Source of the DNA: a virus
Taxonomy: Duplodnaviria; Caudoviricetes
Virus record (IMG/VR): IMGVR_UViG_3300005326_000040
Location: 96,001 to 160,000 of that record
DNA: 64,000 bases
Direction: 5' to 3' (one strand)
Made by a program: the position numbers and the translations under genes. Each line of letters starts with the position of its first letter. The first letter of the stretch is position 1. A model generated the notes under the pieces. It saw nothing but the letters and a program-made list of their open reading frames with translations. It made no database searches and was not told the origin of the DNA. Shown here piece after piece: positions 1,999 through 59,513 of this stretch.

Positions 1999-2994
1999 AT
2001 GTCGAAGAACTCCAGCCGTCGCAACGTCTCCGCTGCTCGCGCCGCCGCCATCGTCTCGGGCAAGCCCGAGCGGTTTGATGCAGCCATGATCCAGAAGCGT
2101 TCTGCTGAAGAAGCTGCGCGTCTTGCCACGATCAACATCGGTCGCGACCCGCAGAACAATCGCATCGTGTATTCCATTTGGGATGCAACGCTGCGCGGCT
2201 CGTTGACTGCGGCTCTCACTGGCGCCATCTTGAAGCTCGGACTGGAGCATGAGCTTCTGAAGGTGACGGTGGATGATGGCAAGTTCCAGTTGGTTCCCAA
2301 TGTCGATATGGAGAGTTTCCAGAGCCGTTACACCTACCACCGGGTGTTCGAGGCTGTGGAAATGAAGTGGCGTGCTGCGCTTCATGCCATTGGGCATCGG
2401 GTGGCTTTGATGGACGAGCAGACGGGGCGTCCTGTCATCGAGCAGCAGAAGGATCGCAACGGCAATCTGATGTGGCGTGACAGCGCACAGACGGTTCCGT
2501 TCATGGGAACGTCGTACAAGAAGGATGAAAAGGGCCGCGATGTGTGGGAAGGCACCAAGAAGTTCGAGGGTGCTGTGTTCAATGAGATGACCGGCGATTT
2601 CGAGACGGTGGTTCTCGATGCGCCGACGTGGCGGCATTGCGGCGCGCTTCAGGATGGTGCTCGTCAGACTTGGGAAAAGAGTCTGATTCGGAAGGCGGAG
2701 TTGGAGCAGCAGGCTGCCCATAGGGCAGCGCGTCAGCAGCAGACCACCATGCAGACTCAGAGTCGCGCTCTGGCGGAAGTGGCGAAGCCTTTGAGTCGTG
2801 TGGACGAAGCGAGCCCGGACGAGATTCGCGAGTTCAAGACTGGACAGGAGTTGGGCTTGGGCAATACGCCCTTTGCTACCGCACTTGCGGGAAAGGAAGC
2901 GGCGTTCAAGCTCGACAGGCTCGGCCGCAAGCAGCCGACGCACAAGAAGGTTCGTGCTTCGAAGAAGGCTGCTGAAAAGGCTGCTGAGAAGTAA
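1999..2994 (+). CDS. hypothetical Ala/Lys-rich protein, GC-richer codon usage
   Basis: 331-aa ORF, AAGGGA RBS. Confidence 0.9.
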   Translation: MSKNSSRRNVSAARAAAIVSGKPERFDAAMIQKRSAEEAARLATINIGRDPQNNRIVYSIWDATLRGSLTAALTGAILKLGLEHELLKVTVDDGKFQLVPNVDMESFQSRYTYHRVFEAVEMKWRAALHAIGHRVALMDEQTGRPVIEQQKDRNGNLMWRDSAQTVPFMGTSYKKDEKGRDVWEGTKKFEGAVFNEMTGDFETVVLDAPTWRHCGALQDGARQTWEKSLIRKAELEQQAAHRAARQQQTTMQTQSRALAEVAKPLSRVDEASPDEIREFKTGQELGLGNTPFATALAGKEAAFKLDRLGRKQPTHKKVRASKKAAEKAAEK

Positions 2995-3009
2995 GACATT
3001 TCACACGAG

Positions 3010-3063
3010 CTTCACTAAATGCTTTGGCTTGACCCATGGGTCAAGTTGGGGTATTTAGTGAAG
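3010..3063 (+). repeat. 27-bp inverted repeat with perfect 18-nt palindromic core
   Basis: CTTCACTAAATGCTTTGGCTTGACCCA / TGGGTCAAGTTGGGGTATTTAGTGAAG; 6 G.U pairs. Confidence 0.85.
3029..3057 (+). promoter_or_regulatory. sigma70-like promoter
   Basis: TTGACC-17nt-TATTTA, ending 17 nt upstream of tRNA-like RNA A. Confidence 0.55.
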
Positions 3064-3074
3064 TCCTACCAACA

Positions 3075-3145
3075 AGACGAAAAGCTCCGGTGAGCCTGTG
3101 ACCTTTCGGTCATGGAGGGTGGTTCAACTCCACCTTCGTCTGCCA
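3075..3145 (+). ncRNA. tRNA-like RNA A (non-canonical anticodon arm, encoded CCA)
   Basis: acceptor AGACGAA/TTCGTCT+G+CCA, D stem GCTC/GAGC, T arm GGTGG-TTCAACT-CCACC, anticodon arm closing a 4-nt TTTC loop. Confidence 0.75.
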
Positions 3146-3166
3146 ATGCTTTGCCGGGAGTAATTC

Positions 3167-3370
3167 ATGGGAAAGAACACAAACGATCGAAAACTGACGC
3201 TCGAAGAAGAAAATAGAATTAAAGAACAACTGGAAGTCGCGGGAGCAAAAATAAGAGTTCTTATTTTTGTCGCTTCTAACGGAACTCCGTGTATTCCTTG
3301 GGCGGATAAAGATAAGGAAATAGTTCATAAGCTGCCAAGGACACGACCCAGATATGAGGAGTGGAAATAA
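3167..3370 (+). CDS. hypothetical protein
   Basis: GGGAG RBS. Confidence 0.7.
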   Translation: MGKNTNDRKLTLEEENRIKEQLEVAGAKIRVLIFVASNGTPCIPWADKDKEIVHKLPRTRPRYEEWK

Positions 3371-3382
3371 AACAAGAAACCA

Positions 3383-3820
3383 ATGACATACAAAACCTGG
3401 CAAGAGATGAAGGACGTAGAAATCATTCAAAAGAACTGGGAAGATATCCCAGAAAAGGAAAGGCAAGAATCTCATTCGTGGCAGATTGCTTGGCAAGTAG
3501 CAACGCCAGAACAGCTTGTTGTTCTTAAGAAAATTCGTGAAGAGTTTATGGCTAGTGTTCCTCCAGGGCATTACTGGCTGGTAGAAGGCGACGACGATTG
3601 TACTGCCTTTGCTGAGGAAACTAAGGTGCTTGTTCTTGCTCAGGAAGCATATCTTGCTCGCGTTTTTGGTTGGACAGGAACGGTAGAAGAAATTCGTCAG
3701 AAAGCAATTGATTTACATATAGCGGATGAAGACGCCGTGGATAATATCGTTCCTGGTTGGATGATGGATTACTCCTGTTACATGGAAGATGTTCGCCGCG
3801 AACATCAATTCAAGCTATAA
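3383..3820 (+). CDS. hypothetical protein
   Basis: 145-aa ORF in run. Confidence 0.8.
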   Translation: MTYKTWQEMKDVEIIQKNWEDIPEKERQESHSWQIAWQVATPEQLVVLKKIREEFMASVPPGHYWLVEGDDDCTAFAEETKVLVLAQEAYLARVFGWTGTVEEIRQKAIDLHIADEDAVDNIVPGWMMDYSCYMEDVRREHQFKL

Positions 3821-3840
3821 TTGTTGAAAGGAAAATCAAC

Positions 3841-4560
3841 ATGCCGATTCGCGAAGTATACATTGACAAAGTGTTGAGAGAAATTGAGCATAGGGATAGT
3901 TCCAACATGCTGCATAATAATTCTGGCCCAGCGGTTATACATTATTGGCCAGATGGAACTATTATGCTGATGGAATACTATATTTCTGGTGGGCTGCACA
4001 AGGATGGAGCGCCCGCATCTTTAAGGTATTTTTCAACCGGCGTAAAAGAGCAGGAGGTTTATTTTCAAAACGACAGATGTCATCGTGATGAAAAAGACGG
4101 ACCTGCGTTATTTGCTTATTACCGATCTGGCGTGCTATCATTTGCATCCTACCAAACAAATGGACGGATACATCGTTCTGTTGGTCCGGCAGAAATCGCA
4201 TATTATGAAGACGGCACCATAAAAGAAGAGATTTATTACAAGCGCGGTAACACACACAATCTAAACGGACCAGCTTTTGTTCGATACGATAGCAGCGGAA
4301 AAGTTGAGCGAGAAGTTTTTTATTTGGATGGCTTGCTTTATACTAAATCCAGCTGGCAAACGGAGGTTGCCAGCCGTATTGCTCAAGCGCCAGCCCCAGC
4401 TACACCATCGAACAATCATGGGCAAGTAGCTTTGCCCAATAACGTTCCGGCTGCAACATCTCAAGTTTGTTGTTTATGCGGGCTGTTTGATAAGTTTGCG
4501 GACCCTCAAAAGGACGGGAAGATTTACTGCTATCTTCATGTAGATAGAGCGCCAAAATAA
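3841..4560 (+). CDS. MORN-like (HRxDGPA) repeat protein with C-terminal CxxC..CxxH finger
   Basis: repeats LHKDGAPA, HRDEKDGPA, HRSVGPA, HNLNGPA; tail CCLCGLFDKFADPQKDGKIYCYLH. Confidence 0.8.
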   Translation: MPIREVYIDKVLREIEHRDSSNMLHNNSGPAVIHYWPDGTIMLMEYYISGGLHKDGAPASLRYFSTGVKEQEVYFQNDRCHRDEKDGPALFAYYRSGVLSFASYQTNGRIHRSVGPAEIAYYEDGTIKEEIYYKRGNTHNLNGPAFVRYDSSGKVEREVFYLDGLLYTKSSWQTEVASRIAQAPAPATPSNNHGQVALPNNVPAATSQVCCLCGLFDKFADPQKDGKIYCYLHVDRAPK

Positions 4561-4570
4561 GGGCAAAGAA

Positions 4571-5278
4571 ATGGATTTGAAAGAAACTTATCTCAACGGT
4601 GTTCTTATTCAACGAATCATTTACAAGAAAGGAACGCGCAACTATCATTGTACAACCGGGCCTGCTTACGAAGAGTTTTACGATATCGGAGCGCTTAAAA
4701 CGCGCGGATATTGGGTTGACAATAAGCGACATAATGATAATGGTCCGGCATTAACCTCTTATCACGAAAACGGAATCACAAGACAGGAATTATGGTATCA
4801 CGATAACTACCTCGATAGAGATGAAAAAGACGGCCCATCTTTCATGTCGTATTATGAAACTGGAATTAGATCTCAAATTGAGTACCATAAAAGGGGCCTT
4901 TTCCACAGGTCGAATGGCCCGGCAGCAATACTATATTATGAAAATGGGAATGTAAAAAGAGAAGCGTTCTACGAAAATAATTATCTTCACAATGAAAATG
5001 GTCCAGCCATAATTACGTACGACGATACCGGAAAGGTTACTTCGGAGTCATATTACCTACATAATAACCTTCATCCCACCAAAACAGACTGGCAGCATGC
5101 GTTGGCAATTTTGGCGGCAAAAACTGCCGCTGCTGCTTCTTCAACAGCAGTTGGTTCGCAACAACAGAATGGTTGTCAACAGAACTGTTGTATCTGTAAT
5201 TTGTTTGACATGTATGCTGAGCCTCAAAAGGATGGTAAGATTTATTGCTACGTCCATTTGGACAAAGCTCCTAAGTAA
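4571..5278 (+). CDS. MORN-like repeat protein, paralogue of 3841-4560
   Basis: HNDNGPA, HRSNGPA, HNENGPA repeats; near-identical tail. Confidence 0.8.
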   Translation: MDLKETYLNGVLIQRIIYKKGTRNYHCTTGPAYEEFYDIGALKTRGYWVDNKRHNDNGPALTSYHENGITRQELWYHDNYLDRDEKDGPSFMSYYETGIRSQIEYHKRGLFHRSNGPAAILYYENGNVKREAFYENNYLHNENGPAIITYDDTGKVTSESYYLHNNLHPTKTDWQHALAILAAKTAAAASSTAVGSQQQNGCQQNCCICNLFDMYAEPQKDGKIYCYVHLDKAPK

Positions 5279-5284
5279 AGGGGA

Positions 5285-5554
5285 ATGCTCATGAGCGAAA
5301 AGTTTACTCCTCGGCAAACGATTCGAGATTTTGTTGCGCCAGAAGAAGACCCACACACTGCATATTATTACAATCTAAATGATGATATGCTTTATCCCTA
5401 TTGGGAATATGGGGAAGAGCTTCTTCCATATTTGGATGAGGAAGAAGAATTGATGACGGAACCTGATAACGATTACTTTTCTTTTTCTCCAGAAATCGTA
5501 CACCTGATGACAATTCGGGAAACAAGAACAACGAACGAAGTTTTCGTTTGCTAA
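5285..5554 (+). CDS. acidic hypothetical protein
   Basis: ORF in run. Confidence 0.65.
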   Translation: MLMSEKFTPRQTIRDFVAPEEDPHTAYYYNLNDDMLYPYWEYGEELLPYLDEEEELMTEPDNDYFSFSPEIVHLMTIRETRTTNEVFVC

Positions 5555-5583
5555 GCATATAACAGCGGCAAAGAAGGACAAAA

Positions 5584-5802
5584 ATGACATACCAGGAATT
5601 GCTGGAACAATTGAGTGGTCTTTCAAAGGAACAGCTTCAACAAGATGTAACGATTGTAGCTCTTGGTTTGGCTGAAGCTCTTCCTATTTTGGATTGTGTT
5701 ACGACGTGGCATGTTGAAGAAAAGGATATTGAGCCTTTGGGAATTAATATTGCTGAAAACATTTTGGATAAAGATAGCGTATATTTGACAATTGACATCT
5801 AA
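5584..5802 (+). CDS. small phage protein (MTxxEL..L type)
   Basis: AAGGA RBS; N-terminus similar to 6043 and 8119. Confidence 0.7.
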   Translation: MTYQELLEQLSGLSKEQLQQDVTIVALGLAEALPILDCVTTWHVEEKDIEPLGINIAENILDKDSVYLTIDI

Positions 5803-5812
5803 AAGGTCTAAT

Positions 5813-6046
5813 ATGGCGAGCTTCATCTTTCTGACGACAAAGCCTTTGCGCATTGAGGATGGGGATGAGGAGAAGATGTACACGGTCAAGCGGCTTGGAG
5901 AGGCAAAGAAATCCGAGCTAGGGATGCATGATTCCGTATACTTCAAGTTTGAAATGGACAACATGAAGTTCCAGGATTTGGGAACAGTTCGGACGTACCT
6001 GATGATGAAGTGCGGCCGAAGGGTTGTGAAAACGGAAGAAGAATGA
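5813..6046 (+). CDS. hypothetical protein
   Basis: ORF in run. Confidence 0.7.
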   Translation: MASFIFLTTKPLRIEDGDEEKMYTVKRLGEAKKSELGMHDSVYFKFEMDNMKFQDLGTVRTYLMMKCGRRVVKTEEE

Positions 6047-14409: not shown

Positions 14410-14582
14410 AAGTCGAGGACATTAACGATTGTATAAATTGCCACACCAAACGTGAAATTGTTTTATGGCACGAGACAATTAGAAAGTATTTCTTTCGATG
14501 TCTAATGTGTGGAAAGATTGGTCGTCGCGGCAAAACGATTGAAGAAGCTGTGGAGTGTTGGAATAAGGAAAATAGAGGTTGA
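14403..14582 (+). CDS. Lar-like (restriction alleviation family) zinc-ribbon protein, 59 aa, not in ORF track
   Basis: CINC...CLMCG..GKTIEEAVECWN; GTG start. Confidence 0.55.
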   Translation: MVEVEDINDCINCHTKREIVLWHETIRKYFFRCLMCGKIGRRGKTIEEAVECWNKENRG

Positions 14583-14651
14583 GCAGATAGCTTAAAGGAA
14601 GAGCGTCAACAAGGTTGATGGTTGTAGGTTCAAATCCTGCTCTGCTCACTA
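14581..14651 (+). ncRNA. tRNA-like RNA B (3-nt anticodon loop, A-CUA end)
   Basis: GAGCAGA TA GCTT AAAGGAA GAGC G TCAAC AAG GTTGA TGGTT GTAGG TTCAAAT CCTGC TCTGCTC A CTA. Confidence 0.8.
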
Positions 14652-30953: not shown

Positions 30954-31091
30954 ATGCCTTTTCATTTTTGTGGCGATGAACTGATGGCGCTTTTGGCAAT
31001 GTTTCCGTTCCTTGGAGTAATCTATTTGAAGCTTCGTTCTTATTTTGGCAAGAAGAAGCTATGTAAGAAGTGTGACCATGAGCACAACTAA
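30954..31091 (+). CDS. small membrane protein MPFHFCGDELMALL (45 aa, not in ORF track)
   Basis: AAGGA RBS; TM segment plus basic/Cys-His tail. Confidence 0.55.
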   Translation: MPFHFCGDELMALLAMFPFLGVIYLKLRSYFGKKKLCKKCDHEHN

Positions 31092-31497
31092 ACAAGTTAT
31101 TGTGGTAAGGAAAGACCTTAAAATGAAACATGGGAAATTTGCCGCCCAGGTTTCACATGCTGCTATGGCTTTCCTTACAAGGCAAATTAAAGAAGGCCAT
31201 AGAGGTAACCAACCTGTTCTCTATGGTGACGGTAATTCTTCTGTTCTAATTAATATTTGGGCGCCAGAATATCAGTGGATACAAGAGTCTTATGTCAAGG
31301 TTGTTCTTGCTGCCAAGGATGAGCAAGAACTACGAGAAGTAATGGATGCTGGGAAAGCTGCCGGACTAGAAGTCCACGGTATTATTGATGAAGGCCGGAC
31401 AGTTTTCAACGGTGTTCCAACACTAACCTGCGCTAGTTTTGGCCCGGATGAAAATGAGAAGATTGATAAAGTAACAGGACATCTTCCGCTTTATTAA
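31078..31497 (+). CDS. pth2: peptidyl-tRNA hydrolase type 2
   Basis: KQVIVVRKDLKM..GK.AAQVSHA...KVVL...DEGRT...TC...GP..KIDKVTGHLPL. Confidence 0.92.
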   Translation: MSTTKQVIVVRKDLKMKHGKFAAQVSHAAMAFLTRQIKEGHRGNQPVLYGDGNSSVLINIWAPEYQWIQESYVKVVLAAKDEQELREVMDAGKAAGLEVHGIIDEGRTVFNGVPTLTCASFGPDENEKIDKVTGHLPLY

Positions 31498-55249: not shown

Positions 55250-56302
55250 ATGGAACGAAAATTAGCTTCAATTCAAAAAGTATCTGAATTATTTCCAATT
55301 GAGGGCGCAGATAAAATCGAAGGATGTAGCGTCCTAGGTTGGCAATGTGTTGTTCAAAAAGGTGAATTCAAGCCTGGAGATATAGGAGTCTACTTTGAAA
55401 TAGACTCTGTTCTCCCTAGCGATAAACCTGAGTTTGCTTTTCTTGAGCCTAGAAAATATAGAATTCGCACTATCCGTTTACGCAAGCAAATTGCCCAGGG
55501 CTTAATGCTTCCCCTGAGCAAAATCACTTACGCCGATCTATCTTCCTTTCAAGAAGGCGATGACGTAACAGAATTGCTTGGGGTTCAGAAGTATGAACCA
55601 CCAGAAGAGAGTGAAGACGGAGCCAACTTCCGTTCTCGTCGGCGAGGAGTCTTTCCTTCTTTCCTTAGAAAGACTGATGAATTAAGAATTCAAAGTGTTC
55701 CAGGTTTTCTAGACCGTCATCGTGGTAAGACTTTTTATGCTACTGAAAAGGTGGATGGAAGCTCAGTTACGCTTTTCTATCTTCAAGATGCTTTATACGG
55801 GAAAGAGTCGGGATACTTTGGCGTTTGTTCTCGTAACATGGAAGTAATGAAAGATGACGGCGACTCTTATCGCAATGCTTTTTGGGAAGCCGTAGAGAAT
55901 TTTGATTTGGAAAACAAGATAAAATCCCTTGGTGCAAACATTTGTGTACAAGGCGAGCTTGTAGGTACAGGTATTCAAAAAAACAAATACAAGCTAACAG
56001 ATAGAAAGATTTTCTTATACAGTGCTTATGACGTTGTAACACAACGTTACATCAATCGCGATAGCTTGGTGCAGATAGCAAACGCTTTAGGTCTTGACAC
56101 GGTTCCGATGTTGGGTGAATTTGTTTTGAATCATACGGTTTCAGAGCTTGTGGAGATGTCTAGAGGATATAGCAAGCTCAATCCTGCAACGTTGCGAGAA
56201 GGAATTGTTTGTCGGCCTATTGAGGAATGCGGTGACCCTGAAACTGGACGAGCCAGTTTCAAAGCTATCCAGCCAGAATTTCTTTTAAAGTACGCTGAAT
56301 GA
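55250..56302 (+). CDS. RNA ligase, DRB0094/Rnl2 family
   Basis: RKLASIQ...IEGAD.I, TEKVDGSS, CSRN, QGELVG.GIQ.N.Y, REG.V, FKAI. Confidence 0.92.
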   Translation: MERKLASIQKVSELFPIEGADKIEGCSVLGWQCVVQKGEFKPGDIGVYFEIDSVLPSDKPEFAFLEPRKYRIRTIRLRKQIAQGLMLPLSKITYADLSSFQEGDDVTELLGVQKYEPPEESEDGANFRSRRRGVFPSFLRKTDELRIQSVPGFLDRHRGKTFYATEKVDGSSVTLFYLQDALYGKESGYFGVCSRNMEVMKDDGDSYRNAFWEAVENFDLENKIKSLGANICVQGELVGTGIQKNKYKLTDRKIFLYSAYDVVTQRYINRDSLVQIANALGLDTVPMLGEFVLNHTVSELVEMSRGYSKLNPATLREGIVCRPIEECGDPETGRASFKAIQPEFLLKYAE

Positions 56303-58580: not shown

Positions 58581-59513
58581 ATGCGAATTGCCTGGATAAC
58601 GGACCCACATTTACTTTTTCTCTCAGAAGAAGTGCAGGAACAAAATGCAAATGAAATCTCTTTTCTCTACGGCCAAGGTCTCAAAAATGATCTTTCTCTT
58701 CTGGTTGCGGAGAAAAATGCAGAAATTCTGGCCCACAAAATAAATGACAGGAAAGTAGATTGCGCTATCATTACGGGAGATATCTCAGAGTTTCCACAAC
58801 TCGAAAAGATTTTCGAGACGTTCAATAGAATCGTAACCGTTCCTGTATACTACGTTCACGGGAATCACGACGCCTATCATGCCTCATTTGAAAAGCTTTA
58901 TCATCTATCTAATTCGCATCCTTTTTCCAAAGTAATTTGGGCGCAAAAAGGAATTTTCAAACTGTCAGATAAGATTTGTTTGACAGGACATGATGGGTTT
59001 TATGATGGACGTTTTGGTGATTTTTTTGGTGTTCGTCACGGTGGGTGGGCTATGGGGGGTGATAACACCTTCACCATGCCTGATTGGACACAGATCGAAG
59101 AGATGGCGGCACTCAAAGGAAATCGAGAACTAATCTACGATTTCATTACCCGTAAAGGGGATGACGCCGCTCAACATCTAAAGGACGTGGTAAGGAAAGC
59201 TGCGCAGACCTACGACACTATCATACATATTACCCATGTTCCTCCGTTTCAGCAATGTTCTAGAACCGATAATGGTGATGTTTCCCCTCAAAACAGTTTG
59301 CCTTTCTTTTCTTGCAAAGCAACAACGGATGCTTTGTTAGACTTGGTTGATGAGTTTCCGGACAAAAAGATTATTGTGTTTGCCGGGCACACTCATGCAC
59401 AAGCAGCGCTTATGTTAGAAAACATTGAGGTATATGTAGCTGGCGCTATATACTATGAGCCAGACGTATACTGTACTGTCGAAATTGACGAAGACGGGAC
59501 TGTCCGTTTCTAG
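58581..59513 (+). CDS. CpdA/Icc-like metallophosphoesterase
   Basis: ITDPH, ITGDIS, GNHD, THVPP, GHTH. Confidence 0.85.
   Translation: MRIAWITDPHLLFLSEEVQEQNANEISFLYGQGLKNDLSLLVAEKNAEILAHKINDRKVDCAIITGDISEFPQLEKIFETFNRIVTVPVYYVHGNHDAYHASFEKLYHLSNSHPFSKVIWAQKGIFKLSDKICLTGHDGFYDGRFGDFFGVRHGGWAMGGDNTFTMPDWTQIEEMAALKGNRELIYDFITRKGDDAAQHLKDVVRKAAQTYDTIIHITHVPPFQQCSRTDNGDVSPQNSLPFFSCKATTDALLDLVDEFPDKKIIVFAGHTHAQAALMLENIEVYVAGAIYYEPDVYCTVEIDEDGTVRF

What the first reader, a model, noticed from the sequence alone, without database searches (positions are those of the whole stretch)
3075..3145. tRNA-like RNA A: CCA-ended cloverleaf without a 7-nt anticodon loop
It has a perfect 7-bp acceptor stem, G discriminator plus encoded CCA, a canonical T arm (TTCAACT) and a mini D loop (CGGT). 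The anticodon arm is extended to 7-8 bp around TTTC; the widest possible loop is 6 nt (CTTTCG, which contains TTC, the Glu anticodon). It sits about 10 nt after a predicted TSS, consistent with RNase P-type maturation. Inference: it is unlikely to decode normally and may be a decoy or a non-ribosomal aminoacyl carrier.
Basis: partly seen in the sequence, partly recalled or inferred. Interest (0 to 1): 0.75.

Follow-up and report, generated by a model that had tools for sequence, protein, structure and literature searches.

The report
Anticodon-sealed tRNA look-alike in jumbo phage
A 338-kb uncultured groundwater phage carries a real 71-base gene shaped like a tRNA whose codon-reading loop is zipped shut, so it cannot decode; it most likely marks where host tRNA-trimming enzymes cut a long phage messenger RNA, though a role as a free tRNA mimic is not excluded.

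Summary
Window 3075-3145 (+) folds as its minimum-energy structure into a cloverleaf. It has a perfect 7-bp acceptor stem, G73 and an encoded CCA. It has a 5-bp T stem with the loop TTCAACT and a 4-bp D stem with the 4-nt loop CGGT. The anticodon arm is an 8-bp helix capped by C(UUUC)G.

It is not chance: a descriptor asking only for acceptor stem, T arm and NCCA finds 3 sites in the genome and none in 30 shuffles. It is not an assembly slip either. It is one of six elements in this phage that share the same sealed cap. A model built from four siblings, without this element, scores it 39.6 bits, like the phage's true tRNAs. Across the six, 98% of stem cells pair and 16 of 21 pairs change on both sides.

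Its hexamers lie inside a 26-bp, G·U-rich hairpin that forms fully only in + strand RNA, 10 nt upstream. The element sits 21 nt before an SD and ATG, as do several true tRNAs of this phage.

No orthologue, no homologue of a flanking gene and no RNA data were found.

Best reading: a non-decoding, tRNA-derived processing signal (0.45). Rivals: trans-acting mimic or decoy (0.28), inert relic (0.12). This scan had already noted the family on neighbouring windows of the same genome.

The parts
1999..2994 (+). Upstream 331-aa ORF. It is GC-rich (58.6% over 2001-3000 against about 42% around it) and would be the upstream cistron of the proposed transcript.
   Evidence: ORF list; composition; no Pfam or PHROG family; no homologue among 5.8 billion protein clusters.
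3009..3064 (+). 26-bp RNA hairpin with loop CAUG, specific to the + strand. Proposed role: 3' stabiliser or RNase III-type site for the upstream mRNA.
   Evidence: The + strand gives -35.7 kcal/mol, z = -8.35, with 26 continuous pairs including 7 G·U. The - strand gives -21.9 with a 7x7 internal loop. No T tract follows it.
3075..3145 (+). tRNA-like RNA A, 71 nt including the encoded CCA. Acceptor 3075-3081 with 3135-3141; A8 A9; D arm 3084-3095; sealed anticodon arm 3096-3115; AG linker; T arm 3118-3134; G73 at 3142; CCA 3143-3145.
   Evidence: Model R2, built without this element, scores it 39.6 bits with E = 2e-9 per genome.
3104..3107 (+). UUUC tetraloop closed by C3103-G3108. It is the family's shared C(NUUC)G cap in place of a 7-nt anticodon loop.
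   Evidence: The closing C-G pair is invariant in 6 of 6 family members.
3156..3169 (+). Shine-Dalgarno-like GGGAG (3156-3160) and the ATG (3167-3169) of the downstream ORF. The ATG begins 21 nt after the CCA end.
   Evidence: Sequence; spacing table for all tRNAs and mimics.
3167..3370 (+). Downstream 67-aa ORF, the first cistron after the element.
   Evidence: no Pfam or PHROG family.
14581..14649 (+). Sibling B. ARAGORN and Rfam call it tRNA-Leu(AAG) at 69 nt, but loop ACAAGGU can close to an AAG triloop. It ends N73-C-TAG.
   Evidence: 81.8 bits with R2 (training member).
16577..16645 (+). Sibling C. A 5-bp anticodon stem with cap C(AUUC)G; ends A-C-TAG; SD and ATG follow 18 nt downstream.
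   Evidence: (training member).

Best explanation
Element A is a genuine tRNA-derived RNA kept under selection for structure, and it has lost the ability to decode. Its anticodon arm is sealed into an 8-bp helix with a C(UUUC)G cap.

Proposed mechanism:
1. It is transcribed on the + strand as part of a long polycistronic phage transcript, not from its own promoter.
2. It serves mainly as a processing ('punctuation') signal. Host RNase P cuts at its 5' end, position 3075.
3. Host 3' tRNA-maturation activities trim to, or cut after, the encoded CCA at 3145.
4. The upstream 331-aa mRNA is left with the 26-bp hairpin as a 3' cap.
5. The downstream mRNA is freed with a 21-nt leader that holds little beyond its ribosome-binding site.
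6. The released 71-nt RNA may be a by-product or may have a second role.

Shown here: the structure, its non-random nature, family membership, strand, intergenic position and spacing, and the absence of a convincing promoter.

Inferred: transcription through the region, cleavage by RNase P and the 3' enzymes, and the biological purpose.
For: 1. The cloverleaf is real. Its 12-bp acceptor plus T-arm stack and its RCCA end match what bacterial RNase P and the CCA and 3'-end enzymes recognise (established knowledge)..

2. The structure is under constraint. Across the six elements, 98.3% of stem cells pair, 16 of 21 pairs change on both sides, and slid controls pair at only 37-50%. The capping C-G pair is invariant.

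3. R2, built from four siblings, scores A at 39.6 bits. That lies within the range of the phage's true tRNAs, 33-52 bits.

4. A is intergenic and on the same strand as its neighbours. No frame reads through it.

5. Its 3' end lies 21 nt before an SD and ATG. Three other mimics (E1, E3, C) and four true tRNAs (Gln-UUG, Thr, Leu-UAA, Ile-GAU) sit 9-20 nt before a start codon, so tRNA-shaped units abut ribosome-binding sites throughout this phage.

6. The mimics share the 3' trailers of the true tRNAs. These are either an encoded CCA or N73-C-TA(A/G). This indicates one common maturation route.

7. A + strand-specific 26-bp hairpin lies 10 nt upstream, where a 3' stabiliser for the upstream fragment would be needed.

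8. Intergenic gaps from 71 to 99 kb are unusually structured; many have z <= -4. No TGNTATAWW motif occurs on the + strand from 54 to 106 kb. Both fit long, processed transcripts.

9. A's tertiary core is degraded compared with its siblings: A8 in place of U8, and a 4-nt D loop with no A14 or R15. This suits a minihelix-type cleavage signal better than a faithful whole-tRNA mimic.

10. The phage encodes no RNase Z-like, RNase III or HARP enzyme, so the host's enzymes would do the cutting.
Against: - There are no RNA data. Transcription, RNA ends and cleavage are all unobserved.
- RNase P and RNase Z do not need an anticodon arm. A long perfect helix with a cap motif conserved across unrelated stem sequences therefore suggests something reads that arm or the whole body, which processing alone does not explain.
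- The hairpin-plus-mimic layout is not seen at the siblings. The E2 gap, for example, has z = -0.5.
- No orthologue exists to show conservation through time.
- tRNA punctuation has not been reported for phages in the library searched.
- The phage also carries PTH2, an RNA ligase and a CCA-type nucleotidyltransferase. Investment in tRNA ends goes beyond what simple cutting requires.
Confidence: 0.45

Rival explanations
1. Trans-acting tRNA mimic. After release, the stable 71-nt CCA-ended RNA works on its own. It could be a decoy or sponge for host factors that read the tRNA body or 3' end, such as tRNA-directed defence nucleases, 3'-end toxins, the CCA enzyme or RNase P. It could also be a non-ribosomal carrier. 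The sealed loop makes it immune to anticodon nucleases and keeps it off the ribosome.
For: - The same C(NUUC)G cap sits on at least four unrelated stem sequences, and the closing pair is invariant. This suggests selection on the arm itself.
- A's 8-bp helix plus tetraloop restores roughly the length of a normal anticodon arm (inference).
- The CCA is encoded.
- The phage invests in tRNA and RNA-end enzymes: PTH2 at window 31078-31497, an RNA ligase at 55250-56302, and a PolyA_pol/CCA-type nucleotidyltransferase at genome 296282-296665.
- Phage tRNAs are an established counter-defence against tRNA nucleases (PMC11464382, PMC11555353, PMC12445682).
Against: - In the cases read, the phage tRNA rescue relies on decoding-competent, cleavage-resistant tRNAs. 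The two papers opened (PMC13056530, PMC12445682) contain no mention of a decoy.
- A 4-nt loop is not a substrate mimic for anticodon-loop nucleases.
- A lacks the identity elements for anticodon-independent charging (sequence, compared with textbook rules).
- The phage has no synthetase of the families tested.
- None of these enzymes is adjacent to A. Its neighbours are ORFans and MORN-repeat proteins.
Confidence: 0.28
2. Inert relic: a former tRNA gene that lost its anticodon loop and persists without function.
For: - No orthologues were found.
- tRNA detectors do not call it at default settings.
- The core is degraded: A8 and a 4-nt D loop.
- A weak, non-folding A-like stretch at genome 73597-73663 may be a decayed copy: 23.9 bits, fold z = 0.06.
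Against: - All 24 stem pairs are intact with no mismatch.
- Six elements share one specific cap, with extensive compensatory change.
- The arm is lengthened with perfect pairing rather than eroded.
- Phage genomes are compact; this one is 90% coding by crude calls.
Confidence: 0.12
3. An unconventional decoder. Either a tRNA-Glu-like molecule reading GAA/GAG from a 6-nt loop (CUUUCG), or a quadruplet reader using the 8-nt loop CCUUUCGG (anticodon UUUC).
For: - UUC is present in five of six caps, and the phage has no tRNA-Glu among its 19 ARAGORN calls.
- With a canonical 5-bp stem, A's loop has the 2+4+2 layout of engineered quadruplet tRNAs (sequence).
Against: - C32-G38 and C33-G37 would be Watson-Crick pairs, and the fold closes them.
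- There is no U33 in the 8-nt reading, and no purine-37 / A38 context.
- The siblings have 14-nt arms that leave only 4 nt, and sibling B has AAG.
- The E. coli tRNA-Glu identity elements are absent (my knowledge).
Confidence: 0.03
4. Sequencing or assembly indel in an ordinary tRNA gene.
For: Low coverage: word depth 3.6 in the only run that holds it. The loop contains a T run.
Against: - An independent assembly is identical.
- Adding one base would not give a canonical loop.
- Six loci share the feature with different loop letters (ATTC, GTTC, TTTC, AAG).
Confidence: 0.01

Closest known systems
Canonical phage tRNA genes co-transcribed with mRNAs, including this phage's own 19 tRNAs (Rfam RF00005)
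   Same: 7-bp acceptor stem, 5-bp T stem with a T54-Psi55-C56-R57-A58-type loop, GG in the D loop, and N73-CCA. It has the same 3' trailers and the same placement just upstream of SD and ATG as the phage's true tRNAs.
   Different: No 7-nt anticodon loop and no U33. A8 replaces U8. The D loop has 4 nt and the variable region 2-3 nt. It is below the Rfam gathering score and is not called by ARAGORN at default settings.
Mitochondrial tRNA punctuation and plant-mitochondrial t-elements
   Same: A non-decoding tRNA-shaped module lies between cistrons of one strand, immediately next to the mRNA ends. A stem-loop lies nearby that could cap the upstream 3' end.
   Different: This is a bacteriophage, not an organelle. 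Cleavage has not been shown. The full four-arm cloverleaf is kept, with a conserved cap motif. No report in phages was found in the library.
Phage T7 early-mRNA RNase III sites (intergenic hairpins that are cut and then stabilise the upstream mRNA; established knowledge)
   Same: The 26-bp intergenic hairpin at 3009-3064 is long enough to be an RNase III substrate. It sits at a cistron boundary.
   Different: Here it is paired with a tRNA-like module. It has no internal loop. Cleavage is untested, and the phage has no RNase III of its own.
Other tRNA mimics: YrlA Y RNA, the predicted b7a-tRNA, the tmRNA tRNA-like domain and the TYMV TLS (bioRxiv 10.1101/312249)
   Same: An L-shape-compatible tRNA-like fold without a functional anticodon loop. 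Like tmRNA and the TLS, it has a free CCA end.
   Different: - YrlA has a closed acceptor end and lies next to Rsr.
- b7a-tRNA is defined by adjacency to Band-7 and RtcB, and both are absent from this phage.
- It has no tmRNA features.
- The Tymo_tRNA-like model scores only 16.6 bits against a 40-bit cut-off.
tRNA-Sec (RF01852), the best Rfam match
   Same: A 4-nt D loop and a longer-than-normal anticodon stem.
   Different: It scores 25.2 bits against a 47-bit cut-off. It has no UCA anticodon, no long variable arm and no 8/5 acceptor/T geometry.

Membership tests
Canonical tRNA (RF00005) | 7-bp acceptor stem plus 5-bp T stem, with a 7-nt T loop carrying T54, Psi55, C56, R57 and A58 | tested here: met
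   3075-3081 with 3135-3141; GGTGG / TTCAACT / CCACC.
Canonical tRNA (RF00005) | 7-nt anticodon loop with U33 and a purine at 37 | tested here: not met
   A 4-nt cap, UUUC, on an 8-bp helix. ARAGORN can open at most 6 nt.
Canonical tRNA (RF00005) | Tertiary-core nucleotides U8, A14, R15 and G18-G19 | tested here: not met
   A8 is present. The D loop is only CGGU, so GG is present but A14 and R15 have no counterpart.
Canonical tRNA (RF00005) | Score at or above the Rfam gathering threshold, or a default ARAGORN call | tested here: not met
   Not listed at gathering thresholds. The best clan member is tRNA-Sec at 25.2 bits, under its 47-bit cut-off. ARAGORN calls it only at -ps80 or -ps85.
This phage's family of anticodon-sealed tRNA-likes (six members) | Cloverleaf with a C-G-closed 3-4-nt cap (C-NUUC-G or a triloop) in place of the anticodon loop; + strand; intergenic | tested here: met
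   R2, built without A, gives 39.6 bits with E = 2e-9. The closing C-G is found in 6 of 6, and 98.3% of cells pair. A differs in having a 7-8-bp rather than a 5-6-bp arm, a mini D loop and an encoded CCA.
tRNA punctuation / t-element type processing signal | tRNA-like structure placed between cistrons of one transcript | tested here: met
   80 nt after the upstream stop codon and 21 nt before the next ATG. It is on the same strand as its neighbours, with no ORF running through it.
tRNA punctuation / t-element type processing signal | Cleavage by RNase P and RNase Z (or 3' trimming) that generates the mRNA ends | not testable with these tools
   No RNA run holds the region.
b7a-tRNA (RNA-repair-linked tRNA-like) | Encoded next to a Band-7 protein and an RtcB ligase | tested here: not met
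   No RtcB (PF01139) and no Band_7 (PF01145) anywhere in the 338-kb record.
tRNA-Glu | UUC anticodon in a 7-nt loop with A37, plus the bacterial GluRS identity set (G1:C72, U2:A71, U11:A24, augmented D helix; my knowledge) | tested here: not met
   UUC is present only inside the cap. The element has A1:U72, G2:C71 and C11:G24.
Anticodon-independent aminoacylation substrates (Ala, Ser, Leu, His) | G3:U70 (Ala); long variable arm plus G73 (Ser); A73 (Leu); G-1:C73 (His). Textbook rules, my knowledge. | tested here: not met
   A3:U70; a single arm between D and T; G73; A at position -1. Actual charging was not tested.

The most novel reading that the evidence does not exclude
Element A and its five siblings form a deliberate phage system of decoding-dead, anticodon-nuclease-proof tRNA bodies. 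Released from early transcripts, they would act in trans. They might jam or soak up host tRNA-directed immune nucleases or 3'-end toxins, or occupy tRNA-handling enzymes. That would be an RNA-decoy form of counter-defence, distinct from the known 'resistant replacement tRNA' strategy. A weaker but still new variant: this is the first tRNA-punctuation system for mRNA maturation described in a virus of bacteria.
Probability: 0.2. Interest if true: 0.85.

Novelty: new variant of a known kind. Interest (0 to 1): 0.6.

Why it matters
Phage tRNA genes are usually explained by codon supply or, more recently, by escape from tRNA-cleaving defence systems. Both explanations need a working anticodon. A conserved-shape tRNA that cannot decode separates the 'tRNA body' functions from decoding. 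Those functions are processing signals, enzyme recognition and possibly decoy action.

If the processing model holds, jumbo phages use organelle-style tRNA punctuation to mature long transcripts. If the decoy model holds, it is a new class of RNA anti-defence.

There is also a practical point. Such genes are discarded as 'tRNA-???' or pseudo-tRNAs, or are not called at all, so they are under-counted in phage annotation.

Tried and rejected
Searches for an orthologue of A, all negative:
- An acceptor-anchored scan of IMG/VR gave 21 hits. Twenty do not fold as tRNA-like cloverleafs, and one is an ordinary phage tRNA-Trp that shares the acceptor stem by construction.
- A pattern specifying A's D arm, cap and T loop gave 1 hit, which is not tRNA-like.
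- A loops-only, fixed-spacing pattern (23 specified bases, stems free) gave 0 hits in metagenome, viral and genome collections.
In the 84 where a perfect 7-bp acceptor partner could be placed, the span is 79-93 nt (class II tRNA size), so the hairpin would be the variable arm. None spans 76 nt or less, and 36 could not be placed.

Sibling-type patterns (C-NTTC-G with shortened spacing):
- No sealed cloverleaf turned up elsewhere.
- The unshortened pattern was swamped by normal tRNA-Arg(UCG).

Synteny route:
- The 145-aa downstream protein has no relative in IMG/VR.
- The 331-aa upstream protein has no homologue at all.

Relatives found through the terminase gene:
- Four contigs were found. The three small ones have no R1 or R2 match.
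- The 244-kb relative (IMGVR_UViG_3300028735_000004) is not held and was not searched.

Expression:
- No RNA holder is listed for window 2000-6000.

Other results:
- A second R1 hit, at genome 73597-73663 (23.9 bits), does not fold as a cloverleaf (z = 0.06). I do not count it as a member.
- The promoter reading is rejected.
- The - strand ORF 3110-3571 overlaps two + strand ORFs and the element. I treat it as spurious.
- No phage RNase Z-like, RNase III, HARP, RtcB, Band-7, GluRS/GlnRS or class IIa synthetase genes were found.
- I considered whether A is a class II tRNA that lost its anticodon arm, because C(UUUC)G-capped variable arms are common. I set this aside: the 0-1-nt D-to-hairpin junction and the siblings' architecture fit an anticodon-arm position. 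Its origin remains open.

Full report
**Setting**

The window is bases 96,001-160,000 of a 338,055-bp IMG/VR virus record that is estimated 97% complete. The only sequencing run that holds the region is labelled groundwater metagenome. Most genes lie on the + strand.

ARAGORN finds 19 tRNA genes in the whole record. They include a UUA-anticodon suppressor and one 'tRNA-???'. Inside the window, ARAGORN and Rfam at default settings report a single tRNA, at 14581-14649. Neither reports anything at 3075-3145.

Read directly, window 3075-3145 has these parts:
- a perfect 7-bp acceptor stem (3075-3081 with 3135-3141);
- A8 and A9;
- a D arm, GCTC / CGGT / GAGC;
- an 8-bp helix (3096-3103 with 3108-3115, two pairs G·U) capped by UUUC;
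- a 2-nt linker;
- a T arm, GGTGG / TTCAACT / CCACC;
- G73 and CCA.

This cloverleaf is the minimum-energy fold: -29.9 kcal/mol, z = -3.35, with no shuffle folding as well. ARAGORN calls it tRNA-?(tt) with a 6-nt loop once its threshold is lowered. The best Rfam match is tRNA-Sec at 25.2 bits against a 47-bit cut-off.

If the canonical 5-bp stem is imposed, the 'loop' is 8 nt, CCUUUCGG. Its outer two pairs are Watson-Crick, so it seals.

A minimal descriptor (7-bp acceptor stem, 5-bp T stem with a TTCRANY loop, NCCA) finds three sites in the genome: tRNA-Thr, tRNA-His and this element. It finds none in 30 shuffled genomes.

An independent assembly of the holding run is identical across 2900-3300. 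That run is probably the source sample and its depth is low.

**It belongs to a family**

Relaxed ARAGORN calls, folding and inspection show five more + strand intergenic cloverleafs with a shrunken anticodon loop.

| Element | Genome position | Window position | Cap |
|---|---|---|---|
| E1 | 83771-83845 | outside | C-AUUC-G |
| E2 | 87933-88004 | outside | C-GUUC-G |
| E3 | 88388-88455 | outside | C-AUUC-G |
| A | 99075-99145 | 3075-3145 | C-UUUC-G |
| B | 110581-110649 | 14581-14649 | AAG triloop possible |
| C | 112577-112645 | 16577-16645 | C-AUUC-G |

None lies in an open frame.

A covariance model built from E2, E3, B and C only (R2) scores A at 39.6 bits, with E = 2e-9 per genome. The phage's true tRNAs score 33-52 bits on the same model.

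On the model-guided alignment of all six:
- 98.3% of stem cells pair, against 37-50% when partners are slid;
- 16 of 21 pairs show changes on both sides;
- the C-G pair closing the cap is invariant.

That alignment is fitted to the model, and the sequences are paralogues in one genome. This is therefore evidence for structural constraint, not for conservation through time.

A is the outlier of the family. Its arm is 7-8 bp rather than 5-6 bp. Its D loop has 4 nt. It has A8 in place of U8, a 2-3-nt variable region and an encoded CCA.

**The promoter reading fails**

They sit in the two arms of a hairpin spanning 3009-3064.

As + strand RNA, the hairpin forms 26 uninterrupted pairs, seven of them G·U, at -35.7 kcal/mol (z = -8.35). 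The - strand version has a 7x7 internal loop and reaches only -21.9 kcal/mol. G·U pairs that become C·A mismatches on the other strand mark a structure selected at the RNA level on the + strand. The hairpin must therefore be transcribed, which a start site 10 nt before the element would prevent.

The sigma-70 scan lists nothing there. The most recurrent intergenic 9-mer of the phage is TGATATATA. It may be an extended -10 type promoter, which is my reading and is untested. It and its TGNTATAWW variants are absent from the + strand between genome 54,234 and 106,000, a stretch that holds E1, E2, E3 and A.

Intergenic gaps between 71 and 99 kb are unusually structured, with many at z <= -4. The gap 98,995-99,166, which holds the hairpin and A, has z = -4.8.

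**Context shared with the true tRNAs**

A's CCA end lies 21 nt before the ATG of a 67-aa ORF, with GGGAG between them. Three other mimics (E1, E3, C) and four true tRNAs (Gln-UUG, Thr, Leu-UAA, Ile-GAU) sit 9-20 nt before a start codon.

The 'N73-C-TA(A/G)' trailer of the other mimics is not special to them. Several true tRNAs of the phage end the same way (Gln, Lys, Arg-CCU, Arg-ACG; also Met with TAT). Six true tRNAs encode CCA as A does.

So apart from the anticodon arm, the mimics are laid out and presumably matured exactly like the phage's tRNAs.

The phage has no RNase Z-like, RNase III or HARP gene. It does have:
- a PolyA_pol/CCA-type nucleotidyltransferase at genome 296282-296665;
- a PTH2 hydrolase at window 31078-31497;
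- an RNA ligase at window 55250-56302.

None of these is near A. A's neighbours are ORFans and two MORN-repeat paralogues.

**No orthologues**

- Scans anchored on the acceptor stem, on the D arm plus cap plus T loop, and on loops alone with free stems found nothing tRNA-like of this design in viral, metagenome or genome collections.
- A cap-plus-T-arm pattern returned only class II tRNA-sized hits where the span could be placed. The capped hairpin would be their variable arm, and none spans 76 nt or less.
- The flanking proteins have no detectable homologues.
- Terminase relatives are few, and the one large relative could not be searched.
The paralogues answer it in the opposite sense, because all of them are sealed.
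- One unrelated viral contig held, by accident of a scan, a 72-nt cloverleaf with a 6-bp stem and a UUCG cap (L070 5030-5101). ARAGORN calls it 'tRNA-???'. Sealed tRNA look-alikes are thus not confined to this phage, although the NUUC form was not found elsewhere.

**Interpretation**

That the element is real, tRNA-derived and non-decoding is well supported; I put this at about 0.85. What it does is inference.

I favour a processing signal, at 0.45. The supporting points are:
- The acceptor plus T-arm stack and the RCCA end are what RNase P and the 3'-end enzymes read (established knowledge).
- The element sits exactly at a cistron boundary, with a minimal leader downstream.
- A strand-specific long hairpin sits where the upstream fragment would need a 3' cap. 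This resembles the intergenic RNase III hairpins of T7 early mRNAs.
- A's degraded tertiary core suits a minihelix-type signal.

The main weakness is that processing does not require an anticodon arm. Yet the family keeps a perfect arm with one specific cap on unrelated stems. That points to something reading the arm or the whole body, and it keeps a trans-acting mimic or decoy role alive at 0.28.

In the phage tRNA counter-defence papers I opened, the rescuing tRNAs decode, and no decoy is mentioned. A decoy would therefore be new.

Lower-ranked readings:
- An inert relic (0.12) is hard to square with 24 intact pairs and the family covariation.
- Unconventional decoding (0.03) is contradicted by the Watson-Crick closure and by the siblings.
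- An assembly error (0.01) is contradicted by six loci with different loop letters.

**Comparison with known systems**

The element works most like mitochondrial tRNA punctuation and plant t-elements. It is built like the phage's own tRNAs.

- It is not a member of RF00005, because the anticodon loop, the core nucleotides and the score all fail.
- It is not tRNA-Sec, tmRNA or a TYMV-type TLS.
- It is not YrlA, and it is not b7a-tRNA, because the phage has no RtcB or Band-7.

I found no report of tRNA punctuation or of anticodon-sealed tRNA mimics in phages in the library searched. That library excludes most subscription journals.

This scan had already flagged the six-member family and the punctuation idea on neighbouring windows. 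I re-derived the family, the spacing and the enzyme inventory independently.

I add four points:
- the strand-specific hairpin, which removes the proposed promoter;
- the finding that the C-TA(A/G) trailers and the abutment to ribosome-binding sites are shared with true tRNAs;
- the 8-nt-loop reading of the arm;
- the negative orthologue searches specific to A.

Noticed in passing
genome 28046-28121 (outside the window): ARAGORN calls a tRNA with anticodon UUA, which would read the stop codon UAA. It sits directly after tRNA-Lys in a Pro-Asp-Lys-Sup cluster. This may indicate stop-codon suppression or recoding in part of the phage.
   Followed up: no
window 3009-3064: A 26-bp intergenic hairpin with 7 G·U pairs that forms fully only in + strand RNA. 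No sequence-similar copy exists elsewhere in the genome (blastn), but many other 71-99-kb intergenic gaps are equally structured.
   Followed up: partly
L151 990-1065 and 1365-1432 (genome about 73,086-73,161 and 73,461-73,528): Two copies of a GC-rich structured intergenic repeat, bounded by CCGCCGATG ... CGGCGGTTAA. Each lies just before an SD and start codon.
   Followed up: no
genome 73597-73663 (L151 1501-1567): A weak look-alike of element A: 23.9 bits with R1, the same CTTTCG hexamer, the T loop TTCAATT, and an ending of GGCA. It does not fold as a cloverleaf (z = 0.06) and may be a decayed copy.
   Followed up: partly
window 1999-2994: A 331-aa ORF with 58.6% GC in a roughly 42% GC phage. 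It has no Pfam or PHROG family and no homologue among 5.8 billion protein clusters.
   Followed up: partly
window 3757-4560 and 4571-5278: Two tandem paralogues with MORN_2 repeats. They share a Cys-rich C-terminal motif (CC.C.LFD..A.PQKDGKIYCY.H.D.APK).
   Followed up: no
window 31078-31497; 55250-56302; 58581-59513: A PTH2 peptidyl-tRNA hydrolase (E = 5.9e-29), an RNA ligase with a PHA02142 OB domain (E = 3e-30 / 2e-25), and a calcineurin-like phosphoesterase. Together they look like a tRNA/RNA-end toolkit in the same window.
   Followed up: partly
whole genome, e.g. 1345, 5276, 27409, 162377, 163871 (+ strand): The motif TGATATATA (TGNTATAWW) is the most recurrent intergenic 9-mer, possibly an extended -10 promoter (my reading, untested). 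It precedes tRNA-Met and tRNA-Ile(UAU) by about 12-20 nt. It is absent from the + strand between 54 and 106 kb.
   Followed up: partly
L070 5030-5101 (IMGVR_UViG_3300020036_006147): An unrelated viral contig carries a 72-nt cloverleaf with a 6-bp anticodon stem and a UUCG cap. ARAGORN calls it tRNA-??? with a 6-nt loop. Sealed tRNA look-alikes therefore occur outside this phage.
   Followed up: partly
genome 88023-88046 (after element E2): A 7-codon mini-ORF (ATG ... TAG) with a strong SD follows E2 by 18 nt. It may be a leader peptide or a chance occurrence.
   Followed up: no
genome 162397-162469: The phage tRNA-Met starts with an unpaired C1/A72, the mark of a bacterial initiator tRNA.
   Followed up: no
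L292 / L293 (IMGVR_UViG_3300037420_001231 and 3300037423_000853): GC-rich viral contigs with a tandem run of degenerate tRNA-like units that ARAGORN does not call.
   Followed up: no
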